A stretch of 50,759 nt of DNA from Escherichia phage MikeNSara: the sequence record OR896827.1; one strand, 5' to 3'. Positions 5,383 through 46,856 of the stretch are shown here, one piece after another. A program made the position numbers and the translations under genes. Below the pieces are notes generated by a model. The model was not told where the DNA came from, did no database searches, and worked only from the letters and a program-made list of their open reading frames with translations. How positions within the stretch are numbered: position 1 is the first letter of the stretch; each line of letters opens with the position of its first letter.

Positions 5383-6165
5383 ATGGCTAAAGATTATTCA
5401 TCTGTTATGGGTCTTTCTTGTCCTGGTTGTTTGGTTGATTCTACTCGCTACAATATTGATGGTACTGGCGTTTGTGGTTCTGAATCGATCATTGCTGGTA
5501 AGGTTGTTTTCTTTAAGGAGAGAATCGGCGGTTACAATATATTTGTTGACCACAAAGAGGAGGACGCTGTGGTTGCGGGTGTTGCGCTAAGGAGCAACAT
5601 AACAACGACAGTTAACGAGGAAGACGGGTATTCCGACTACAAGGAAGGAGACGCCATCAACATTTTGACAAGAGGTGTTGTATGGTGTGTAACTCAAACA
5701 ATTGAATCTCCCCCTGAGCATGGGGATCTTGTTTATGTTAACAATGATGGTTTTGTAGCAAAGAGTGATGGCGATGAAATCGTCGATGGCTGGATTTTTA
5801 CTGGTGACTTCTACAAGTTTGATGAAACAATAAACATAGTCGGAGTCAGAATAACGCCGCTTTATCATAGAAAATATCTTCTCACTGGTGCGATCATTGA
5901 GGCTGAAAATGGATACATAGAGGGAACAGAGACGATTGATAACGTACAATTAAAGGTGACAGTTGTTCCGACTTGGGCCGATGACAAAACTGGTCAGTGG
6001 ACAATTACAAATCCACAAGATCCAATGGTTGCCAGTGTTAGTCGAACAGGCCTTGTTGTTCCTACTGGTGTGGGAGGTAGAGTTAACGTCAACTGGACTG
6101 CTAATGATGGTTCTGGAGTTGCTGACCAGTTTGATATTGTATTTACGAAAACCGCTGGCGAATAA
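5383..6165 (+). CDS. capsid-associated structural protein with C-terminal Ig-like domain, paralog 2
   Basis: RBS AAGGAG; N-terminal half paralogous to 4823..5332 (YNIDG, RGVVW); C-terminal beta-rich T/V/G region resembles Ig-like (Big_2-type) decoration domains. Confidence 0.45.
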   Translation: MAKDYSSVMGLSCPGCLVDSTRYNIDGTGVCGSESIIAGKVVFFKERIGGYNIFVDHKEEDAVVAGVALRSNITTTVNEEDGYSDYKEGDAINILTRGVVWCVTQTIESPPEHGDLVYVNNDGFVAKSDGDEIVDGWIFTGDFYKFDETINIVGVRITPLYHRKYLLTGAIIEAENGYIEGTETIDNVQLKVTVVPTWADDKTGQWTITNPQDPMVASVSRTGLVVPTGVGGRVNVNWTANDGSGVADQFDIVFTKTAGE

Positions 6166-6190: not shown

Positions 6191-6209
6191 GTTTAACAAA
6201 AAGTGCTAT
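6191..6209 (-). repeat. 20-bp motif copy in reverse orientation inside late operon
   Basis: GTTTAACAAAAAGTGCTAT on + strand (complement of motif), immediately upstream of terminator 6216..6241; no good -10 at expected position. Confidence 0.5.
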
Positions 6210-9944: not shown

Positions 9945-9964
9945 CTTTTAACAAAAAGTGCTAT
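9945..9964 (-). repeat. 20-bp motif copy in reverse orientation inside late operon
   Basis: CTTTTAACAAAAAGTGCTAT on + strand between major tail terminator and chaperone gene; -10-like TAGATT weak. Confidence 0.5.
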
Positions 9965-20247: not shown

Positions 20248-20516
20248 TAATTACACCTCAAATCAATAAATTTACTTTCATTTTGCCAGCGGTTGATAAA
20301 TTTAACTTCTTTATTGTCAACGCTCAACCTGTATTGCTTTTGGCTGAATCTGTTTTCGCGGACTGCATTAATTTTAACTTCATGGAATCCGTTAACAGGG
20401 AATGTTTTAACGTTAAATTTTGCCGTGCAGTCGATCTCATTGAAGTTGCCAGTAGGAGACGCTGCGCACCCGGTCAGAGCGGCTACGGTGGCGATAACTG
20501 CGATTAATTTTTTCAT
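20247..20516 (-). CDS. outer-membrane lipoprotein, Cor-like superinfection exclusion candidate
   Basis: Signal peptide plus lipobox LTGC (MKKLIAVIATVAALTGC); ~89 aa; sits next to the host-specificity gene as cor does in T1/phi80/N15; start moved from TTG 20522 to ATG 20516 with RBS AAGGAG. Confidence 0.55.
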   Translation of the reverse strand: MKKLIAVIATVAALTGCAASPTGNFNEIDCTAKFNVKTFPVNGFHEVKINAVRENRFSQKQYRLSVDNKEVKFINRWQNESKFIDLRCN

Positions 20517-20547
20517 CTTCAATACTCCTTAGTTGTCGTTTCCTGTA

Positions 20548-20590
20548 ACTATACACGATCCGACAAGCGGCGTTTAGCAAAAAGTGCTAC
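20548..20590 (-). promoter_or_regulatory. motif-type promoter cassette (leftward, 19-nt variant) for Cor-like operon
   Basis: GTTTAGCAAAAAGTGCTAC at 20572..20590, 18-bp spacer, -10 TATAGT on minus strand; lipoprotein ATG 20516 downstream. Confidence 0.45.
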
Positions 20591-20689
20591 TTGTTATTTT
20601 TTGTTTTTCGGTGTTATCGAATTTAAGACGGCGTAAATTTAGTGCAAATTTTAGCCAACATAAGGGCAATAAACAATCAATAAAATAGA

Positions 20690-21017
20690 TATATACATAT
20701 AAAATCAATAGTTTATTTATTTATGTATGTATATTTGTTTTTTCTTGTTATCTGTGTTTCTTGTGGTTTTGGTTGTTTGTGGTGATTTTTCTTTATGAGT
20801 ATCTGTATGTGCCATCATTCATGTGTATGTATATAATCCGGCGTATCTGAGAGAACAATGGAACAAGAAAAATAACACATATTAATCATTAACTTACGTG
20901 TCAAATTTGTTTTCTTGCCATCTGAGAACGTTTAGAAAACAGAAAAAACAAAACAACTATTGACTAAATCAACCAAATGGCTACAATGCACAAACAAAGC
21001 AACCAGGAGCATTAAAG
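20690..21017 (+). repeat. AT-rich control region, paralog A
   Basis: Shares ordered blocks with 40960..41298: TTTATTTATTTAT(G/A)T..TGTAT, TTTTGTTATCT, GTATCTGTATGTG, AACAAGAAAAA, TTGAC(T/A) promoter, AACCAGGAG RBS. Confidence 0.6.
20960..20987 (+). promoter_or_regulatory. sigma70-type promoter (TTGACT-16-TACAAT) upstream of recombination module
   Basis: Near-consensus -35 and -10 hexamers with 16-bp spacer, AT-rich upstream region; RBS and ATG 21018 about 30 nt downstream. Confidence 0.6.
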
Positions 21018-22073
21018 ATGAGTGATTTTAACGCCTACACTAGCGAAGAAATGAGCAACGAGCTTTATCATGATCCTAACGCATGGACGGCTGAATATGT
21101 CAGCGGTTCCAGCCTGGCGGAGATTTACAGCACTTGCCCGGCGTACTGGAAGTACAAGCCTCGCCAGGAAACCAAAGCACTTGTTTTCGGTACGCAGTCG
21201 CATACCAATTTTGAAAGCAAGGAGTTATTCGAAAAAACATATCGCCGCGCACCGTCGCAGGATGATTTTAAAGATCTGATCACAAGTCAAACGGCGTTAG
21301 CCTCAAAGCTGAAATCTTTTGGCCTGAAAGGTACGACGGGTAAGCAATACCCTGAATTGCTGGAAATGCTGTACAAGTGCGGTGAGGATCTCAATGTGTG
21401 GTGGCTTATCGAAATGATGGCAGAATGCCAGGCCGCAGCGGACGGCGTGCAGCTAATCGACGCGAAAGATTATGATGCCTGTGTAGCGATGCGGCGCGTA
21501 CTTGAGGCAATACCTGAGCATAATGCTTGCATGAATAGCCCAACCGCGCAGCGTGAAATGTCAATATTCGGGATCATCAATGGCGTAAAAGTTAAAGTGC
21601 GCCTTGATCACGTTGACGTAAACAAGGATGTAAAGGCCACAATCATTAACGGTTACGACGAAAAAGGCCGACCGATTTATGAAGAAGTCATCTATCCAGA
21701 AGCTGTGATTATCACTGACTATAAAACAACGGTTAGCGCAAATCCGGTTGACTTCCAGCGCCTGGCTTACAATCACGGCTATTATCTCAAAATGGCTTTG
21801 CAGCATGATTTATTTAAAAAGGCGTATCCAGACGAGGAAAGGCCAGTAATTGTGAGATTGCTTGCTCAAGAAAAGAAAGAGCCTTACTTGCCGCTCGCAT
21901 TCCGCATGAACATTGAGCAATTGAAGATCGGGCGTATCCAGTACATGAGCGTGATCAACAAGTTCAACGTTTGCCAACAGTTAGATGAATGGCCTTCGTA
22001 TGCAAACGGGCAACCAGAGATTGATCTTGATACTCCTGATTGGGTCCGCGCTCAATTCAGGCAGTATCTATGA
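21018..22073 (+). CDS. PD-(D/E)XK family recombination exonuclease
   Basis: First gene after a consensus sigma70 promoter; RBS AGGAG; (D/E)xK-type motif ...IITDYKT...; precedes Erf and SSB. Confidence 0.55.
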   Translation: MSDFNAYTSEEMSNELYHDPNAWTAEYVSGSSLAEIYSTCPAYWKYKPRQETKALVFGTQSHTNFESKELFEKTYRRAPSQDDFKDLITSQTALASKLKSFGLKGTTGKQYPELLEMLYKCGEDLNVWWLIEMMAECQAAADGVQLIDAKDYDACVAMRRVLEAIPEHNACMNSPTAQREMSIFGIINGVKVKVRLDHVDVNKDVKATIINGYDEKGRPIYEEVIYPEAVIITDYKTTVSANPVDFQRLAYNHGYYLKMALQHDLFKKAYPDEERPVIVRLLAQEKKEPYLPLAFRMNIEQLKIGRIQYMSVINKFNVCQQLDEWPSYANGQPEIDLDTPDWVRAQFRQYL

Positions 22074-22134: not shown

Positions 22135-22803
<669 letters not shown>

Positions 22804-25484: not shown

Positions 25485-25504
25485 ATAGCACTTTTTGCTA
25501 ATGA
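25485..25504 (+). repeat. 20-bp motif copy (variant) next to tail-fibre start, no canonical -10
   Basis: ATAGCACTTTTTGCTAATGA; expected -10 position reads TTTCAA. Confidence 0.45.
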
Positions 25505-26558: not shown

Positions 26559-27035
26559 TTAGCTATTCGTGCTGTTATCACCTTTGTAGAATCGTCCGCC
26601 TGGTTCGTAGTCTGAATTTTTGACTACGCGCAACATTTCGTATTTGTCGCAACGGGTAGTAAGAGGCTTGCCGTTAGAATCAAACCGCAGATCTGGACGA
26701 CAAAATGATGCGCGGTATCCTTTGCACCCATTATATTTGTAGTCGTTATGCACCTTTTGTGCTCCAGCGGCTGAAATCATACCACGCTTTCGCCACTGGT
26801 TAACGACTTGCTGAGATACGCGCAGACGTCGGGCCATAGCAGGAACACCGCCGTAATACTCGATCAGAATGTCAAGGCGAGATTTCAGACTTGCTTTTAC
26901 CTCATCTCGCAGGATAAGAAATCCGGTTCGGTGTTTTCGTGGCTTTTTGTCTTTACCTCGTCGCGTTCCGTTGTTACCGTTAATAGTGCGCTTGTCGATC
27001 TCACCAGTAGATACTGCAATTCGTGCATCTTTCAT
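26559..27035 (-). CDS. HTH DNA-binding protein (Cro/YdaS-like)
   Basis: RBS GAGGTG; central helix-turn-helix GGVPAMARRLRVSQQVVNQWRKRG; basic N-terminus. Confidence 0.5.
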   Translation of the reverse strand: MKDARIAVSTGEIDKRTINGNNGTRRGKDKKPRKHRTGFLILRDEVKASLKSRLDILIEYYGGVPAMARRLRVSQQVVNQWRKRGMISAAGAQKVHNDYKYNGCKGYRASFCRPDLRFDSNGKPLTTRCDKYEMLRVVKNSDYEPGGRFYKGDNSTNS

Positions 27036-27046
27036 CTAGTCACCTC

Positions 27047-27090
27047 ATAGCATTTTTTGTTAAAACAGTTTATTGTAATGAGTCTATTAT
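27047..27090 (+). promoter_or_regulatory. motif-type promoter cassette (20-mer + 18-bp spacer + TATTAT)
   Basis: ATAGCATTTTTTGTTAAAAC followed after 18 bp by TATTAT; helicase ATG 27123 downstream. Confidence 0.55.
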
Positions 27091-27122
27091 ATACTCCAAA
27101 TGGCATTTTTTAAAGGTTTAAG

Positions 27123-29120: not shown

Positions 29121-29539
29121 TGGCTATAACTGATAAAGGCGATTATCTTGAGTTTTACGAAAGGGATCCAACCGACACGAGAAGGGAAGTTAATCACCAG
29201 ATAGATAGTTTTCAGTGGTTGACTTATGCTCATCCTTATTTGCTGGCGTGGCATACGGTAAACGAGAATGAGAAGTCTAAAGCAACGGCGATGATTGATC
29301 AGCAGTCCGGCTTGGTTAAGGGAGTAAGCGATTTCATCATCCTGATTGGTTTAAACGGAAAATACCCCTTTGCAGCGATTGAGATCAAACGAGTGAATAA
29401 ATCAGGCAAGGGGAAAGCATCACCAGTCAGCGATGAACAAAAGGCTTTTTTGCGTCGCGTTCGCAGCTTAGGAGGATTCGCTGCGGTAGCCTACGGATTC
29501 AATCAGTTTAAGTTGGCTATTGAATACATGCTTAAATAG
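29120..29539 (+). CDS. VRR-NUC domain nuclease
   Basis: TAATG overlap with helicase; PD-(D/E)XK core GVSDFIILIG...AIEIK and SDEQKAFL typical of VRR-NUC. Confidence 0.65.
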   Translation: MAITDKGDYLEFYERDPTDTRREVNHQIDSFQWLTYAHPYLLAWHTVNENEKSKATAMIDQQSGLVKGVSDFIILIGLNGKYPFAAIEIKRVNKSGKGKASPVSDEQKAFLRRVRSLGGFAAVAYGFNQFKLAIEYMLK

Positions 29540-29579
29540 CACTTTTTGTTAAAACTGGCGCGATGGATTGCGCCATAAT
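29536..29579 (+). promoter_or_regulatory. motif-type promoter cassette
   Basis: ATAGCACTTTTTGTTAAAAC, 18-bp GC-palindromic spacer, CATAAT; overlaps VRR-NUC stop; Dam ATG 29619 downstream. Confidence 0.55.
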
Positions 29580-29618: not shown

Positions 29619-30344
29619 ATGGCTAAAGATATTTTAGATAAAGACACCCATGACGCATTCGTTAGCTTTGAGCAGTTGGAGAGAGAAACGTTTATAGGGA
29701 ATGCCCTTGCAATTGGAGGCCATTACCATGCAGTAAAGCCAAATCAATATTATAAGGTAAGCGGCAACCGATACGCTGGAAGCACCACGCCTGACGTTGT
29801 GCGCGATATGTGGAGCACGCCTCAAGAGATCGTGGAGTGGATGGAATCAGAATTTGGTGAATACGATCTCGACGCGGCAGCAAGCCAGGAAAACGCAGTT
29901 TGCGAGAAGTTCTATAGCAAGGAAACAAACTGCTTAAAGCGTTGGTGGGGTAGCAACAAGCACGTATGGCTTAACCCGCCGTACAGCAACCCAACTCCAT
30001 TTATCAAGAAAGCAATTGAGCAAATGGAGCACAACAACCAAATTGATGTTTTGTTGCCAGCCGACAACTCTACAGCATGGTTTTATGAGGCGCAGAAAAA
30101 CGCGGCTGAAATCATCTGGATCACTGGTGAGGTTTACGAAGAGGGTGGAGTAGAATACTCCCGCACCGGAAGAATTGCCTTTGTGTCTGGATTGACTGGT
30201 GAGCCTGTGCAGGGAAACAACAAGGGAAGCGTGATTTTTGTCATGCGCAAACTTAAAGAAGGCGAGGAGCAGAAAACGCGATACGTTAAGATCAGCGATA
30301 TTTGCCCTTCTGTAACCGAACGTCGCGCACGCAAACGGAGCTAA
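29619..30344 (+). CDS. dam: DNA N6-adenine methyltransferase (phage Dam family)
   Basis: WSTPQ, DLDAAAS and catalytic NPPYS motifs of phage Dam-type MTases; RBS GGAG; motif promoter upstream. Confidence 0.8.
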   Translation: MAKDILDKDTHDAFVSFEQLERETFIGNALAIGGHYHAVKPNQYYKVSGNRYAGSTTPDVVRDMWSTPQEIVEWMESEFGEYDLDAAASQENAVCEKFYSKETNCLKRWWGSNKHVWLNPPYSNPTPFIKKAIEQMEHNNQIDVLLPADNSTAWFYEAQKNAAEIIWITGEVYEEGGVEYSRTGRIAFVSGLTGEPVQGNNKGSVIFVMRKLKEGEEQKTRYVKISDICPSVTERRARKRS

Positions 30345-30606: not shown

Positions 30607-30649
30607 TAGCACTTTTTGTTAAAACGCCCGGCCTAGTGTCGGGCATAAT
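30606..30649 (+). promoter_or_regulatory. motif-type promoter cassette
   Basis: ATAGCACTTTTTGTTAAAAC, 18-bp spacer gcccggcctagtgtcggg, CATAAT; the same spacer occurs inverted at 33829..33846. Confidence 0.55.
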
Positions 30650-40352: not shown

Positions 40353-40624
40353 TACTTCTTGATCTCCTCACTGATAAATTTCAGCACCTGACGCAAGAAA
40401 ACCTCGTTGTTGATAGTCGCTGGCAATTCTTCTTTCACTTCTTGCGGCAGATAGATATTGCCGTGCCAGGTCAAGCAATCGTAGTTGATACGATAAGAGC
40501 AAAGCCACTCGCAATCGTTATCTGCTTCCCAAATGCAGAGTTGCAGAACATCGCCAAAATCTTCAACAGTCAGATCCAGACCGTGACGCTTAGCGAAATT
40601 GAAAGTGGTTTTGCTGATGTTCAT
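40352..40624 (-). CDS. hypothetical protein (first gene of leftward early operon)
   Basis: RBS AGGAG; ~30 nt downstream of motif promoter 40659..40702. Confidence 0.5.
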   Translation of the reverse strand: MNISKTTFNFAKRHGLDLTVEDFGDVLQLCIWEADNDCEWLCSYRINYDCLTWHGNIYLPQEVKEELPATINNEVFLRQVLKFISEEIKK

Positions 40625-40658
40625 TGCTATCTCCTGAGCGGTTCGTTTCGATGTGTGT

Positions 40659-40702
40659 AATGTACCCGATCAGACGGCCTGAGTTTTAACAAAAAGTGCT
40701 AT
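40659..40702 (-). promoter_or_regulatory. motif-type promoter cassette (leftward)
   Basis: Reverse complement of canonical 20-mer at 40683..40702, 18-bp spacer, -10 TACATT (as read on minus strand); ATG 40624 downstream. Confidence 0.55.
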
Positions 40703-40733
40703 TTGACGGTTAGCGCCAGGATTGTGATCGAAA

Positions 40734-40824
40734 TAATCAAAAGTAATCATTCGTAATCAAATCACGTCAAAATGATGATTGCCTTTGCAAATTTGATGAG
40801 AAAAGTAATCACGTTTAATCATTG
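40734..40824. promoter_or_regulatory. iteron-like cluster of (G)TAATCA repeats
   Basis: At least six copies of TAATCA / AGTAATCA within ~90 bp, just upstream of the leftward motif promoter. Confidence 0.4.
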
Positions 40825-40959
40825 GTTGCAGGGGAGATAGTGAAACCTCCTCCTCTTGCCTCACTTTTCCGCCTGGCTGTCAGTGGTTGTTATGTTCCGT
40901 TCCCGCCTGTTCTTTTGTTGACCTTCCGCAAAATACGATAACAAAAAATAACAAACAAT

Positions 40960-41298
40960 ACCTATATAATACATTGAAAAATAAGGATTATTTATTTATA
41001 TGTATCTATATATTCTCTTTTGTTATCTTGGTTATTGTGGTATTTGGTGGGGGTATATAGTTTTTGTGTATCTGTATGTGTGTATGGGTATGTAGGGGCA
41101 TATATATCTATATGGCACTTTCCGCGAGAAAACTTCGATAACAGGCAATGATAACATTGATTTATAAGGAAAAATAACGCCTATATTGTTATTGTGCCAC
41201 CATATAAAATTGATAAAACACGCGGGAACAAGAAAAAACAGTTGACACATTAAATAGCATTATTGATAATGCCCACACCTAACAACCAGGAGGCAGAA
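40960..41298 (+). repeat. AT-rich control region, paralog B
   Basis: See paralog A; alternating purine-pyrimidine TG/TA tracts and A-tracts upstream of consensus sigma70 promoter. Confidence 0.6.
41242..41270 (+). promoter_or_regulatory. sigma70-type promoter (TTGACA-17-GATAAT) for rightward early operon
   Basis: Consensus -35, 17-bp spacer, GATAAT -10; A-tract upstream; ATG 41299 about 28 nt downstream. Confidence 0.65.
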
Positions 41299-41763
41299 AT
41301 GAGCGAGCAATCATTCACTGACACGCTGCGCCGTGCCGCTATTATGCTGGCTAATGGCGAGGAAGAGACGATCAAGATTCCTGACGCGTATTTGCAGGTC
41401 CACATGTTCGGCAAGAAGTCGGCAAGCAATCCGGCGGCCTACATTCGCCAGATCATGAGTCGAGTGCCAGAAGTCGCCGAGCGGGGGCGCGTATCCGTTA
41501 CCCGTGGCGTTTACGGGCCGGAAGATGAAAACTTCGGTAGCACTTTCTACGAGGTGCGGATTGTTGAAGGCCGTCGCAAGGTTTACAACAAAGAGGCACT
41601 GGAAAGGGCAGTACGCCAGGCTAAGCGCAAGGTTGCAGAGGCGATCATTGATATGTCACCCAACCTGGCAAACTATGCGCCGGAAGAGTACGAAACATTA
41701 TCAAAGGCCGTCGCTGACTTTCACGCGATGATCAAAAAAACTTTCCTGGAGGATGAGCAATGA
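41299..41763 (+). CDS. hypothetical early protein (first gene of rightward early operon)
   Basis: Start moved to ATG 41299 with RBS AGGAGG; ~25 nt downstream of TTGACA-17-GATAAT promoter. Confidence 0.55.
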   Translation: MSEQSFTDTLRRAAIMLANGEEETIKIPDAYLQVHMFGKKSASNPAAYIRQIMSRVPEVAERGRVSVTRGVYGPEDENFGSTFYEVRIVEGRRKVYNKEALERAVRQAKRKVAEAIIDMSPNLANYAPEEYETLSKAVADFHAMIKKTFLEDEQ

Positions 41764-42032
41764 AAAAGGCATTAATCAGTGTTTTGGTGGCAATGGCATT
41801 CCTGACCGGATGTAAAGAAGATGGCGCGCATGTTGGCAATGTGCAGATGGCTAACCCTGGCGATGACTACAACGTAAGGGAGCTATTCACCGCTGACGGA
41901 TGCACTGTTTACCGATTCTATGACGATCGCACTGTTTACTTTACCAACTGCAAGGGCGCGACTAGCTGGGAAGCATCGAAAAGCAATGGCAAAGGCACGA
42001 CAACAGAATATATGACCGTAGAAACAAAATAG
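41760..42032 (+). CDS. putative lipoprotein
   Basis: ATGA overlap; signal peptide with lipobox LTGC (MKKALISVLVAMAFLTGC). Confidence 0.55.
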   Translation: MKKALISVLVAMAFLTGCKEDGAHVGNVQMANPGDDYNVRELFTADGCTVYRFYDDRTVYFTNCKGATSWEASKSNGKGTTTEYMTVETK

Positions 42033-42072
42033 CACTTTTTGTTAAAACGCCAGGCGCAAAGCCTGGCATAAT
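42029..42072 (+). promoter_or_regulatory. motif-type promoter cassette
   Basis: Canonical 20-mer overlapping stop of 41760..42032, palindromic 18-bp spacer, CATAAT. Confidence 0.55.
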
Positions 42073-46816: not shown

Positions 46817-46856
46817 CACGAATTGCTAAACGCGGGGTTATCGGCCCCGCTATAAT
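46813..46856 (+). promoter_or_regulatory. motif-type promoter cassette (variant 20-mer)
   Basis: ATAGCACGAATTGCTAAACG, 18-bp palindromic spacer, TATAAT; gene 46887 downstream. Confidence 0.5.

What the first reader, a model, noticed from the sequence alone, without database searches (positions are those of the whole stretch)
40960..41298. Two paralogous AT-rich control regions, each ending in a consensus sigma70 promoter
Regions 20690..21017 and 40960..41298 share the same ordered blocks: TTTATTTATTTAT, TG/TA alternating tracts such as GTATCTGTATGTG, AACAAGAAAAA, a TTGAC(T/A) -35 with 16-17 bp spacer and TACAAT/GATAAT -10, and an AACCAGGAG RBS. One drives the exo-erf-ssb module, the other the rightward early operon. 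These are probably the strongest host-RNAP promoters of the phage. The duplicated A-tract and alternating purine-pyrimidine upstream DNA may be curved DNA, Fis/IHF sites or a replication origin.
Basis: seen in the sequence. Interest (0 to 1): 0.6.

Follow-up and report, generated by a model that had tools for sequence, protein, structure and literature searches.

The report
Duplicated early-promoter / origin-like module, T1-like phage
A T1-like coliphage carries two diverged copies of a ~340-bp non-coding module, each combining the genome's most easily melted DNA, short repeated protein-binding-type motifs and a family-wide conserved host-type promoter; the promoters are ordinary, but the shared upstream part is undescribed and is a good candidate for the phage's still unknown replication origin or early-gene switch.

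Summary
The window is a whole Warwickvirus (T1-like) genome. A 20667-21009 and B 40942-41292 align collinearly at 62% over 355 columns (blastn E 6e-17; z 8-11 against position-preserving shuffles), and the genome holds only these two copies. Both lie in the two large divergent intergenic regions.

Each ends in a canonical sigma70 promoter. TTGAC(T/A)-16-TAnnnT is kept upstream of exo in 42 of 43 distinct Drexlerviridae loci. Both promoters correspond to P51 and P01, two of only three intergenic sigma70 promoters listed for phage TLS.

The upstream part is not merely AT-rich. Its cores are the two least stable duplexes, the two most YR-step-rich stretches and the two most T+G-skewed stretches of the genome. 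They are imperfect palindromes framed by enriched ATAACA repeats, which T1 replaces with GTAACA in both regions. The cores sit about 280 bp from the -35.

The shared part is not predicted to be curved, has no shared Fis, IHF or DnaA sites, and is neither coding nor a structured RNA.

Best reading: two early control hubs whose shared module is an origin-type unwinding and assembly element (about 0.4). The main rival is an operator/UAS array (about 0.35). No start-site or replication data exist.

The parts
20548..20590 (-). Leftward promoter of region A, of the repeat type. The 21-nt repeat core GTAGCACTTTTTGCTAAAC is at 20590-20572, followed by an 18-nt spacer and the -10 TATAGT at 20553-20548. 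It serves the cor-like gene, whose ATG is at 20516.
20631..20678 (.). A-specific left flank: a local predicted curvature peak (24 degrees per turn at 20645, fourth highest in the genome) with three overlapping Fis-consensus-like sites. B has no counterpart.
20672..20749 (.). AT-rich imperfect palindrome of module A (arms 20672-20704 and 20717-20749). The 60-mer at 20676-20735 is the least stable duplex of the whole genome. A perfect IHF consensus lies at 20703-20715.
20592..20877 (.). Four ATAACA/TGTTAT repeats of region A: 20592 (-), 20612 (-), 20746 (-) and 20872 (+). The site at 20746 (TTGTTA) is invariant in 25 Tempevirinae sequences.
20711..20830 (+). T+G-rich (79%), YR-step-rich tract of module A. 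It contains GTATCTGTATGTG at 20799-20811. Its sequence varies between genera but its composition is kept.
20937..21020 (+). Rightward early promoter P_A and leader: A-tract 20937-20958 (UP-like), -35 TTGACT 20960-20965, 16-nt spacer, -10 TACAAT 20982-20987, predicted start near 20994, RBS AACCAGGAG 21001-21009, ATG 21018 (exo-erf-ssb).
40659..40702 (-). Leftward promoter of region B, of the repeat type. The repeat ATAGCACTTTTTGTTAAAA is at 40702-40684, followed by a 19-nt spacer and the -10 TACATT at 40664-40659. It has a conserved leader and serves the gene whose ATG is at 40624.
40705..40935 (.). B-specific insert, absent from A: GTAATCA/AATCA repeats (40733-40822), the conserved GGGGAGATAGTGAAAC block, and the highest 300-bp mean predicted curvature in the genome. 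It is homologous to the block where the TLS and T1 records place the packaging (pac) end. A mosaic breakpoint lies at about 40898-40911.
40930..41027 (.). AT-rich imperfect palindrome of module B (GATAACAAAAAATAA ... TTCTCTTTTGTTATC). The 60-mer at 40962-41021 is the second least stable duplex of the genome. It is the best-conserved block across genera.
40888..41192 (.). Seven ATAACA/TGTTAT repeats of region B: 40888 (-), 40938 (+), 40948 (+), 41021 (-), 41138 (+), 41151 (+) and 41187 (-).
40982..41101 (+). T+G-rich (76%), YR-step-rich tract of module B. It contains GTATCTGTATGTG at 41068-41080.
41225..41301 (+). Rightward early promoter P_B and leader: A-tract AACAAGAAAAAACAG, -35 TTGACA 41242-41247, 17-nt spacer (contains AAATAGCA), -10 GATAAT 41265-41270, predicted start near 41277, RBS AACCAGGAG 41284-41292, ATG 41299 (DUF7174 gene, first of the rightward operon).

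Best explanation
Each region is the control hub of one of the two large divergent gene junctions of a T1-like phage.

Shown or strongly supported:
- The right-hand ~80 bp is a canonical host sigma70 promoter. It has an A-tract, TTGAC(T/A), a 16/17-nt spacer and TAcAAT/GATAAT. A 22-24 nt leader and an AACCAGGAG ribosome-binding site follow.
- P_A starts exo-erf-ssb. P_B starts the long rightward operon of small early genes.
- The leftward genes at both junctions use a different promoter type: the 21-nt ATAGCAC...TAAAA repeat, then 18-19 nt, then a -10.
- Between the divergent promoters lies a duplicated, selectively conserved, non-coding module of about 280 bp.
- The module is an imperfect AT-rich palindrome that is the most easily melted DNA of the genome.
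- It is framed by xTAACA repeats in inverted and tandem (9-13 bp) arrangement.
- A T+G-rich, flexible tract follows, and the core sits about 280 bp from the -35.

Inferred mechanism:
- The module is an origin-type DNA-unwinding and protein-assembly element, giving two origin copies.
- A phage-encoded protein binds the xTAACA repeats. The motif variant differs between phage lineages that share the same host.
- Negative supercoiling generated behind the two divergently transcribing RNA polymerases helps open the palindromic core.
- The phage primase and helicases then load there.
- Early transcription and the start of replication would thus be coupled at both sites.
For: - Paralogy: blastn E 6e-17 and only two copies in the genome; z 8-11 against block shuffles. 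A-B similarity is also detectable in Tlsvirus, Hanrivervirus and T1 (z 5-10). It holds across genera after the promoter is removed.
- Promoters: TTGAC(T/A)-16-TAnnnT in 42 of 43 distinct loci, with 18 different spacer sequences. P_B is kept in Warwick-, Hanriver- and Tlsvirus. The TLS paper lists the orthologues P51 and P01 among only three intergenic sigma70 promoters.
- Unwinding element: the A and B cores rank first and second for low duplex stability at 30, 60, 100 and 200 bp windows (z about 4.5-4.8). They also rank first and second for TA/TG/CA steps and for T+G skew. The same architecture and a core-to-promoter distance of 273-293 bp recur in most sampled Tempevirinae loci. The outliers are Stevie B at 318 bp and TLS B at 307 bp. 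T1 has 310 bp (A) and 235 bp (B).
- Palindrome: reverse-strand self and cross hits, E about 3e-7 to 8e-7.
- Repeats: ATAACA occurs 4 times in A and 7 times in B, against 0.7-0.8 expected from their own composition (P <= 0.004). The rest of the genome is at chance. There are 12-13 sites at 9-10 bp spacing in Hanrivervirus B. T1 has GTAACA (5 in A, 3 in B) and no ATAACA.
- Constraint: invariant blocks across 25 sequences. Four-fold degenerate sites of the adjacent exo gene are only 34-50% identical, while the module is 68-76% identical, against a 64% block-shuffled baseline.
- Replication genes encoded by the phage itself: primase, an SF2 helicase, a DUF3987 helicase, an HTH regulator and ssb.
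- The TLS authors searched for an origin and found none of lambda or oriC type.
Against: - No transcription-start, marker-frequency or binding data exist for any T1-like phage in the searchable literature.
- The promoters point away from the core, unlike the T4 and T7 origins.
- There are no DnaA boxes and no plasmid homologues.
- Neither module abuts a helicase or primase gene. A lies 4.6 kb from the primase gene, and B lies 4.7 kb from the DUF3987 helicase gene.
- The near-constant distance and polarity relative to the rightward promoter fit an upstream regulatory region equally well.
- GC skew follows transcription only and gives no replication signal.
- xTAACA is short, and the tunzivis-type B allele carries mixed variants.
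- The stability ranking is a nearest-neighbour estimate, not a supercoiling (SIDD) calculation.
Confidence: 0.4

Rival explanations
1. A purely transcriptional control module. The shared upstream DNA is an operator/UAS array through which one phage-encoded regulator binds xTAACA sites and switches the two immediate-early promoters on or off together. A candidate is the Cro/YdaS-like HTH protein at 26562-27035. The easily melted core could act as a supercoil-sensitive upstream element of the ilvPG SIDD/IHF type. No replication role.
For: - The module keeps the same polarity and a nearly fixed distance (273-293 bp) to the rightward -35 in both paralogues and across genera.
- xTAACA sites reach or overlap the promoter in some lineages: Stevie has TTGACGATAACA, and vojen has a site 17 nt upstream of the -35.
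- One site abuts the leftward repeat element in A.
- Co-regulated promoters commonly share operator sets.
- An HTH 'transcriptional regulator' is encoded.
- A perfect IHF site sits in the centre of A's core.
Against: - The best-conserved block is the palindromic core about 250 bp upstream, not the promoter-proximal DNA.
- In this window no site overlaps the -35 or -10 of P_A or P_B.
- IHF and Fis sites are not shared by A and B.
- The shared part is not predicted to be curved.
- 280 bp of constrained upstream DNA is unusually long for a phage promoter.
Confidence: 0.35
2. Another cis-acting DNA-transaction site, such as a packaging (pac-like) site or a recombination hot spot. The GT-rich tract would be a preferred pairing site for the Erf/exo system that builds T1 concatemers.
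For: - The TLS and T1 genome records place the packaging end inside the B-type intergenic region.
- A mosaic breakpoint lies at about 40900.
- Module A sits next to exo-erf.
- The tracts are the most T+G-rich DNA of the genome.
Against: - The pac-associated block (AATCA/TGATT repeats) lies in the B-specific insert at 40705-40935, which A lacks. It is therefore not the shared module.
- A second pac site in mid-genome would be harmful.
- The mosaic breakpoint lies outside the shared module.
- The GT tract varies in sequence, and no exact shared recombination signal is conserved in orthologues.
Confidence: 0.07
3. Nothing beyond the promoters. On this reading the upstream similarity is a decaying duplication or compositional convergence of AT-rich spacer DNA with no function of its own.
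For: - A-B identity is only 62%.
- The block-shuffled baseline for such low-complexity DNA is already high (64% in global alignment; reverse-complement score 34).
- The exact 13-mer shared by A and B is not conserved in orthologues.
Against: - z 8-11 against composition-preserving shuffles.
- Invariant blocks across genera whose synonymous sites are saturated.
- The architecture is kept in both copies throughout the family, including T1.
- ATAACA is enriched relative to the regions' own composition.
Confidence: 0.05
4. The module encodes a product: a small hydrophobic protein (ORFs such as 40887-41060 (+) or 41032-41250 (-), which some records annotate) or a non-coding RNA.
For: - NorthRox and other records annotate hypothetical CDSs inside B.
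- The + strand ORF ends in a hydrophobic stretch and has look-alikes in Hanrivervirus.
Against: - Substitutions are spread evenly over codon positions: 13/16/16, 3/2/3 and 16/14/20.
- Indels are 1-2 nt.
- Starts are TTG without a ribosome-binding site, and the ORF ends differ between phages.
- RNA folding z-scores of the modules are -1.5 to +0.7.
- There are no Rfam or tRNA hits.
Confidence: 0.03

Closest known systems
Phage TLS promoters P01 and P51 (Supplementary Table S1 of PMC11447400) and the T1-family 21-nt direct repeat
   Same: P51 (upstream of exo) and P01 (upstream of gene 1, a DUF7174 homologue) are the positional and sequence orthologues of P_A and P_B. The leftward repeat elements at both junctions are copies of the published aaATAGCACnnnTTGnTAAAA repeat.
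   Different: The TLS paper lists the hexamers only, and from in silico prediction. It does not describe the paralogy of the upstream 280 bp, the palindromic low-stability core or the xTAACA repeats. It treats the function of the repeat as unknown.
Bacillus phage SPP1 oriL/oriR (two origins sharing initiator-binding boxes next to an AT-rich segment; recalled from memory)
   Same: A pac-type siphovirus with two widely separated, sequence-related cis elements. Each combines short repeated protein-binding boxes with an AT-rich unwinding region.
   Different: In SPP1 the binder (G38P) and origin function are shown experimentally, and one origin lies inside the initiator gene. Here no binder is known and no origin activity is shown. 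Both copies are intergenic, between divergent promoters.
Herpes simplex virus oriS/oriL (AT-rich palindromes flanked by inverted initiator sites, between divergent promoters; recalled from memory)
   Same: Paralogous elements. An AT-rich palindromic centre is framed by inverted short recognition sites. Both sit in divergent promoter regions, one of them next to replication and recombination genes.
   Different: This is an unrelated virus, host and set of proteins. It is an analogy of design only.
Satellite phage P4 ori/crr and SaPI ori (iterons flanking an AT-rich region, bound by a helicase-type initiator; recalled from memory)
   Same: Short iterons (P4: TGTTCACC; here TGTTAT/TGTTAC) lie around an AT-rich stretch. 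There are two related cis regions several kb apart. The phage encodes primase and helicase proteins of its own.
   Different: The resemblance between iterons is short and may be chance. The DUF3987 helicase gave no match to solved structures by sequence. In P4 and SaPI the origin lies next to the initiator gene.
Strong phage and rRNA promoters with UP elements or upstream activating DNA (T7 A1, T5 early promoters, rrnB P1) and the ilvPG SIDD/IHF upstream activating sequence
   Same: A consensus-like -35/-10 with an A-rich tract at -40 to -60, and easily destabilised AT-rich DNA upstream.
   Different: The tract is A-rich only, not the full UP consensus. The conserved element lies 250-300 bp upstream, well beyond UP or Fis range. 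Fis and IHF sites are not shared, and the shared part is not predicted to be curved.

Membership tests
sigma70 (-35/-10) promoter | Hexamers close to TTGACA and TATAAT, 16-18 bp apart, with A at position 2 and T at position 6 of the -10 | tested here: met
   A scores 10/12 with spacer 16. B scores 11/12 with spacer 17.
sigma70 (-35/-10) promoter | Hexamers and spacing conserved in orthologues while the spacer sequence drifts | tested here: met
   42 of 43 loci have TTGAC(T/A), the spacer is always 16, the -10 is always TAnnnT, and there are 18 distinct spacer sequences. P_B is kept in three genera.
sigma70 (-35/-10) promoter | Mapped transcription start about 7 nt downstream of the -10 | not testable with these tools
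   No transcriptome or start-site data for a T1-like phage were found.
UP element | A/T-rich -40 to -60 region matching the proximal (AAAAAARNR) and distal subsites | tested here: inconclusive
   An A-tract lies directly upstream of the -35 in both promoters (AGAAAAAACAAAAC and AAGAAAAAACAG). It is conserved in Tempevirinae but absent in the T1 group. There is no T-rich distal half.
Intrinsically curved upstream DNA | Predicted curvature clearly above the genome background across the shared module | tested here: not met
   The shared part of A averages 6.2 and that of B 8.8 degrees per turn, against a genome mean of 7.4 +/- 4.0. Peaks occur only at 20645 (A-specific), at 41212, and in the B-specific insert. 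The wedge parameters were recalled from memory.
Fis/IHF-dependent upstream activating region | Consensus Fis or IHF sites at corresponding positions of both copies | tested here: not met
   A perfect IHF consensus is present only in A (20703). Fis-like sites occur only at 20631-20678. B has none.
Replication origin (unwinding element plus initiator repeats) | A DNA-unwinding element: a local minimum of duplex stability | tested here: met
   The cores are the first and second least stable segments of the genome at four window sizes. The feature is conserved in all sampled relatives.
Replication origin (unwinding element plus initiator repeats) | Clustered repeated binding sites for an initiator, flanking the unwinding element | tested here: inconclusive
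   xTAACA repeats are enriched (P <= 0.004). They occur in inverted and in 9-13 bp tandem arrangement, and the variant is lineage-specific. The binding protein is unknown.
Replication origin (unwinding element plus initiator repeats) | DnaA boxes or GATC clusters of the oriC type | tested here: not met
   There are no DnaA boxes beyond single 1-mismatch hits at background density, and no GATC in the shared modules.
Replication origin (unwinding element plus initiator repeats) | Origin activity: replication bubbles, marker-frequency peak, or autonomous or infection-dependent plasmid replication | not testable with these tools
   This needs wet-lab work or read-depth data. GC skew only mirrors transcription direction.
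T1-family 21-nt direct repeat (aaATAGCACnnnTTGnTAAAA) | Match to the consensus, intergenic, co-oriented with the downstream gene, about 76 nt before its start codon | tested here: met
   The leftward copies are at 20590-20572 (2 mismatches) and 40702-40684 (0 mismatches). They lie 74 and 78 nt before the start codons. These copies flank the shared module and are not part of it.
pac site (headful packaging start) | Coincidence with the experimentally mapped packaging end of a relative | tested here: inconclusive
   This applies only to the B-specific insert. TLS coordinate 1 is the authors' pac assignment, and the HindIII site at 5876 and EcoRV site at 2733 match their fragment sizes. TLS coordinate 1 and T1 coordinate 1 both fall in the homologous TGATT/AATCA-repeat block. 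The shared module itself does not coincide with it.

The most novel reading that the evidence does not exclude
The two modules are the long-sought replication origins of T1-like phages. On this reading they are duplicated origin/enhancer units, comparable in design to herpesvirus oriS/oriL or baculovirus hrs. One lineage-specific phage protein bound to xTAACA repeats, together with supercoiling from divergent early transcription, would open the palindromic core. The onset of replication would thereby be coupled to the immediate-early transcription programme at both sites.
Probability: 0.3. Interest if true: 0.6.

Novelty: new member of a known kind. Interest (0 to 1): 0.4.

Why it matters
T1-like phages (Drexlerviridae) are classic, abundant phages and notorious laboratory contaminants. 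Their origin of replication and their early/late transcription switch are nevertheless still unknown. The most recent reference paper on TLS looked for an origin and found none, and it lists basic regulatory questions as open.

This work narrows the search for the origin and for the early switch to two defined ~280-bp elements. It provides named sites to mutate: the palindromic cores and the xTAACA repeats. It also gives predicted start sites for the two immediate-early promoters.

These elements are practical handles for engineering T1-like phages and for building strong, compact E. coli promoter cassettes. If the module proves to be only an upstream regulatory region, the result is an ordinary, though unusually long and well-conserved, phage control region.

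Tried and rejected
- Compositional artefact: rejected by block-preserving shuffles and blastn.
- Third copy in the genome: none. The other hits are repeat-type promoters.
- Curved DNA: the wedge model shows no excess in the shared part (parameters recalled from memory).
- DnaA, Fis, IHF, H-NS-motif and GATC scans: nothing shared by A and B.
- GC-skew origin signal: the skew only follows gene orientation.
- Structured RNA: Rfam at gathering and E-value thresholds, tRNA scan and folding z-scores are all negative.
- Small protein genes inside the modules: no coding signature.
- Internal promoter-like site 20809-20837 (GTGCCA-17-TATAAT): not conserved in orthologues.
- Plasmid homologues as a hint of replicon function: none.
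- Concerted evolution of A and B: not supported. Cross-genome A-B scores are as high as within-genome scores, except in T1.
- Sequence matches of the DUF3987 helicase to solved structures: none. The HTH protein gave only weak matches to Cro-like proteins.
- Literature searches for transcription-start, origin or transcriptome data on T1-like phages: nothing usable. The 2004 T1 genome paper is not in the held library.
- A global-alignment identity comparison proved a poor measure because its block-shuffled baseline was 64%. I rely on column conservation instead.
Full report
**What the window is.** The 50.8-kb window is essentially a complete genome of a T1-like phage (Drexlerviridae, Tempevirinae, Warwickvirus). 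It is 98-99% identical to phages tiwna and NorthRox around the finding.
- Region A is the intergenic space 20517-21017. It lies between a leftward cor-like gene and the rightward exo (PDDEXK), erf and ssb genes.
- Region B is the intergenic space 40625-41298. It lies between a leftward operon of small genes and a rightward operon that starts with a DUF7174 gene at 41299.
A third divergent junction, 27036-27122, is only 87 bp long.

**Checking the observation.**
Three words occur only in the two regions: GTATCTGTATGTG, TTGTTATCT and CAACCAGGAG.
- A local alignment runs collinearly for 353-355 columns at 62-63% identity, pairing A 20667-21009 with B 40942-41292.
- Its score of 63 compares with 13.2 +/- 1.7 for dinucleotide shuffles (z 28.7).
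- The fairer control keeps composition within 10-50 nt blocks. It gives 20-27 +/- 4, or z 8-11.
- blastn gives E 5.8e-17 and finds no third copy.
- Minor corrections: TTTATTTATTTAT is 12 of 13 in B, and AACAAGAAAAA is not at collinear positions.

**The promoters.**
- The scan finds TTGACT-16-TACAAT (20960-20987) and TTGACA-17-GATAAT (41242-41270).
- Upstream of exo, 42 of 43 distinct Drexlerviridae loci carry TTGAC(T/A), an invariant 16-nt spacer and a TAnnnT -10.
- The spacer sequence itself takes 18 different forms across those loci. This is a classical footprint of a working promoter.
- P_B is likewise kept upstream of the DUF7174 gene in Warwick-, Hanriver- and Tlsvirus.
- The TLS reannotation paper reports only three intergenic sigma70-like promoters in that genome. 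P51 (before exo) and P01 (before gene 1) are the orthologues of P_A and P_B.
- The promoters are thus real in all likelihood, and already known in silico. No mapped transcription start exists.
- 'Strongest in the genome' is unproven, because sites of equal score exist at 22748, 23744 and 25653.

**A second promoter class, needed to read the regions.**
- The published 21-nt repeat of T1-like phages (aaATAGCACnnnTTGnTAAAA) occurs about 21 times in the window, against 2.75 expected. The TLS paper states that its function is unknown.
- In 18 of 21 copies it is followed, at a fixed 18-19 nt, by a -10-like hexamer such as CATAAT, TATAAT, TATAGT or TACATT. The background rate is 6.4%.
- The same holds in TLS (6/6), T1 (3/4), Stevie (2/2) and vojen (2/2).
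- The leftward genes of both A and B are served by such repeat-type promoters: 20590-20548 and 40702-40659.
- Each junction is therefore a repeat-type promoter pointing left, about 280 bp of shared module, and a canonical sigma70 promoter pointing right.

**Anatomy of the shared module.**
1. The cores, A 20676-20735 and B 40962-41021, rank first and second in the whole genome for low nearest-neighbour duplex stability at 30, 60, 100 and 200 bp windows (z about 4.5-4.8). The adjacent 120 bp rank first and second for TA/TG/CA step density and for T+G content of the top strand (79% and 76%).
2. The cores are imperfect palindromes of about 76-93 bp. Reverse-strand self and cross hits have E 3e-7 to 8e-7. 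DNA hairpin z-scores are -1.4 and -2.6.
3. ATAACA/TGTTAT occurs 4 times in A and 7 times in B, against 0.7-0.8 expected from each region's own composition (P <= 0.004). The other 38 copies in the genome match chance.
   - Sites face the core from both sides and also occur as tandem pairs 10-13 bp apart.
   - The Hanrivervirus B region has 12-13 sites at 9-10 bp spacing.
   - T1 has no ATAACA in either region but has GTAACA (5 in A, 3 in B).
4. The order of unstable core, T+G tract and promoter is kept in A and B copies of all sampled Tempevirinae. The distance from core to -35 is 273-293 bp in most sampled Tempevirinae loci. The exceptions are Stevie B (318 bp) and TLS B (307 bp).
   - T1 has 310 bp (A) and 235 bp (B).

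**Conservation.**
- Across 25 Tempevirinae sequences the A region contains many invariant blocks. These include the alternating T/A positions of the core, TTGTTA at 20745, TTTGTT at 20906, the A-tract and the promoter.
- By contrast, the neighbouring leftward gene is barely alignable.
- Four-fold degenerate sites of the adjacent exo gene are saturated at 34-50% identity. The module is 68-76% identical, against a 64% block-shuffled baseline.
- In B the best-conserved block across genera is again the palindromic core.
- A-B similarity is detectable within Tlsvirus, Hanrivervirus and T1 (z 5-10).
- It is also detectable across genera with the promoter removed. The duplication is therefore old and both copies are maintained. 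I found no sign of concerted evolution except possibly in T1.

**What it is not.**
- It is not coding. Substitutions are flat over codon positions, indels are 1-2 nt, and the ORFs start at TTG and have inconsistent ends. CDSs annotated there in some records are probably spurious.
- It is not a structured RNA.
- It is not predicted to be curved in the shared part. The wedge model (parameters recalled from memory) gives A 6.2 and B 8.8 degrees per turn, against a genome mean of 7.4 +/- 4.0. Peaks lie in copy-specific flanks.
- It has no shared Fis or IHF sites, no DnaA boxes and no GATC clusters.
- It has no plasmid homologues.
- GC skew follows transcription only.

**Interpretation.** The promoter part is solid, at about 0.85-0.9 in my estimate. 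For the shared upstream module two readings remain.
- I favour an origin-type unwinding and assembly element (about 0.4).
  - The single most conserved feature is a palindromic, maximally meltable core framed by inverted and tandem short repeats.
  - The sequence variant of those repeats changes between phage lineages that infect the same host. This argues for a phage-encoded binder rather than a host factor.
  - The core sits 250-300 bp from the promoter, beyond the usual reach of UP, Fis or operator elements.
  - It lies between divergent promoters, whose transcription should feed negative supercoils into it.
  - The phage encodes its own primase, two helicases and ssb, yet no origin has been identified in this family.
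  - Two related origins have precedents in SPP1 (oriL/oriR), P4 (ori/crr) and herpesviruses (oriS/oriL). These are recalled from memory and are analogies of design only.
- The main rival (about 0.35) is a purely regulatory array that co-ordinates the two immediate-early promoters.
  - It is favoured by the fixed polarity and distance to the rightward promoter.
  - It is also favoured by xTAACA sites that touch the promoter in some lineages.
- The two readings are not mutually exclusive.
- Minor rivals are a packaging or recombination site, a functionless remnant, and an encoded product. Together they hold about 0.15.

**Why B is longer than A.**
- B carries a 230-bp insert (40705-40935) that A lacks. 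It contains GTAATCA/AATCA repeats and a conserved GGGGAGATAGTGAAAC block, and has the highest 300-bp mean predicted curvature of the genome.
- The TLS record begins with the authors' assigned pac sequence. Its first HindIII site (5876) and EcoRV site (2733) reproduce their 5,882-bp and 2.7-kb pac fragments.
- T1 coordinate 1 is the start of the annotated 2.8-kb terminal repeat.
- Both record starts fall in the homologous TGATT/AATCA-repeat block.
- The insert is therefore a candidate packaging start.
- By inference from T1, P_B and the first ~2.8 kb of its operon would then lie in the terminal redundancy.
- A mosaic breakpoint at about 40898-40911 separates this block from the module plus DUF7174 cassette.

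**Novelty and limits.**
- The two promoters, the 21-nt repeat and the approximate pac position are already in the literature.
- I found no description of the paralogy of the upstream modules or of their physical and repeat architecture. The 2004 T1 genome paper could not be read, so I cannot exclude that it covers them.
- I classify the finding as a new member of a known kind (phage control region or origin), of moderate interest.
- All functional statements beyond sequence statistics and conservation are inference. No transcript, binding or replication data were available.

Noticed in passing
window, 21 sites, e.g. 29536-29579 (+), 42029-42072 (+), 40702-40659 (-), 20590-20548 (-): The published 21-nt repeat of T1-like phages (ATAGCAC-N3-TTG-N-TAAAA) has a function stated as unknown in the 2024 TLS paper. 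In 18 of 21 copies here it is followed, at a fixed 18-19 nt, by a -10-like hexamer (background 6.4%). The same holds in TLS 6/6, T1 3/4, Stevie 2/2 and vojen 2/2. It looks like the upstream half of a second promoter class that has no -35 at the sigma70 position and may need an activator.
   Followed up: partly
window 40705-40935 (B-specific insert); L061 1-60 (TLS); L057 1-80 (T1): This block contains GTAATCA/AATCA repeats and a GGGGAGATAGTGAAAC motif, and has the highest 300-bp mean predicted curvature of the genome. It is homologous to the place where the TLS and T1 records put the packaging end: the TLS HindIII site at 5876 and EcoRV site at 2733 match the published pac fragments, and the T1 2.8-kb terminal repeat starts there. 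It is a candidate pac site.
   Followed up: partly
window ~40898-40911: A mosaic breakpoint. Some Warwickviruses (SECphi27, JLBYU19/26, tunzivis, tonijn) are 96-97% identical to the left of this point and strongly diverged to the right. There they also carry a DUF7174 allele only 29% identical. JK16 shows the reverse pattern. The module plus first gene seems to move as a cassette.
   Followed up: partly
window, spacers of repeat-type promoters, e.g. 42048-42066, 30625-30643, 36683-36665, 46832-46850: The 19-nt spacers between the repeat and the -10 are often GC-rich palindromes (CCAGG...CCTGG, GCCCGG...TCGGGC, GCGGGG...CCCCGC). The leaders downstream share CATCGAAACGA/CATCGACAACAA ... GAGGA. 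These may be operator or processing elements. Not analysed further.
   Followed up: no
window 6191-6209 (-) and 9946-9964 (-): Two good copies of the 21-nt repeat lie in intergenic gaps of the rightward late (structural) gene block but on the opposite strand. They are followed by weaker -10-like hexamers (TATTAG, TAGATT). They may be antisense promoters or relics.
   Followed up: no
window 41252-41259 and 20977-20981; orthologues: The spacers of P_A and P_B carry AAT(A/G)GC just upstream of the -10 in many lineages (AAATAGCA in B, AAATGGC in A). This resembles the 5' half of the 21-nt repeat (AATAGCAC). One factor could conceivably repress the canonical promoters while acting on the repeat-type promoters from about -45. 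This is pure speculation.
   Followed up: no
window 25653-25625 (-), 22748-22777 (+), 27114-27086 (-): Further canonical-looking sigma70 sites.
- TTGACA-17-GATAAT, the same hexamers as P_B, lies ahead of the 719-aa gene that starts at 25491.
- TTGACA-18-TAAAAT lies inside the end of erf, ahead of ssb.
- A weaker site lies at the third divergent junction, probably corresponding to TLS P57.
   Followed up: no
L001 3058-3551 (NorthRox CDS0066-0068); window ORFs 40887-41060 (+) and 41032-41250 (-): Several public records annotate 'hypothetical proteins' inside region B. The ORFs show no coding signature (flat codon-position substitutions, 1-nt indels, TTG starts). They are probably annotation artefacts of T-rich DNA.
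   Followed up: yes
window 20631-20678: The A-specific left flank has the fourth highest predicted curvature peak of the genome (20645). It also has three overlapping matches to the Fis consensus. B has no counterpart.
   Followed up: partly
whole window: GATC is very frequent, at about 6.3 sites per kb (roughly 320 sites against about 200 expected). The phage encodes a Dam methylase (29619-30341). No GATC lies inside either shared module.
   Followed up: no
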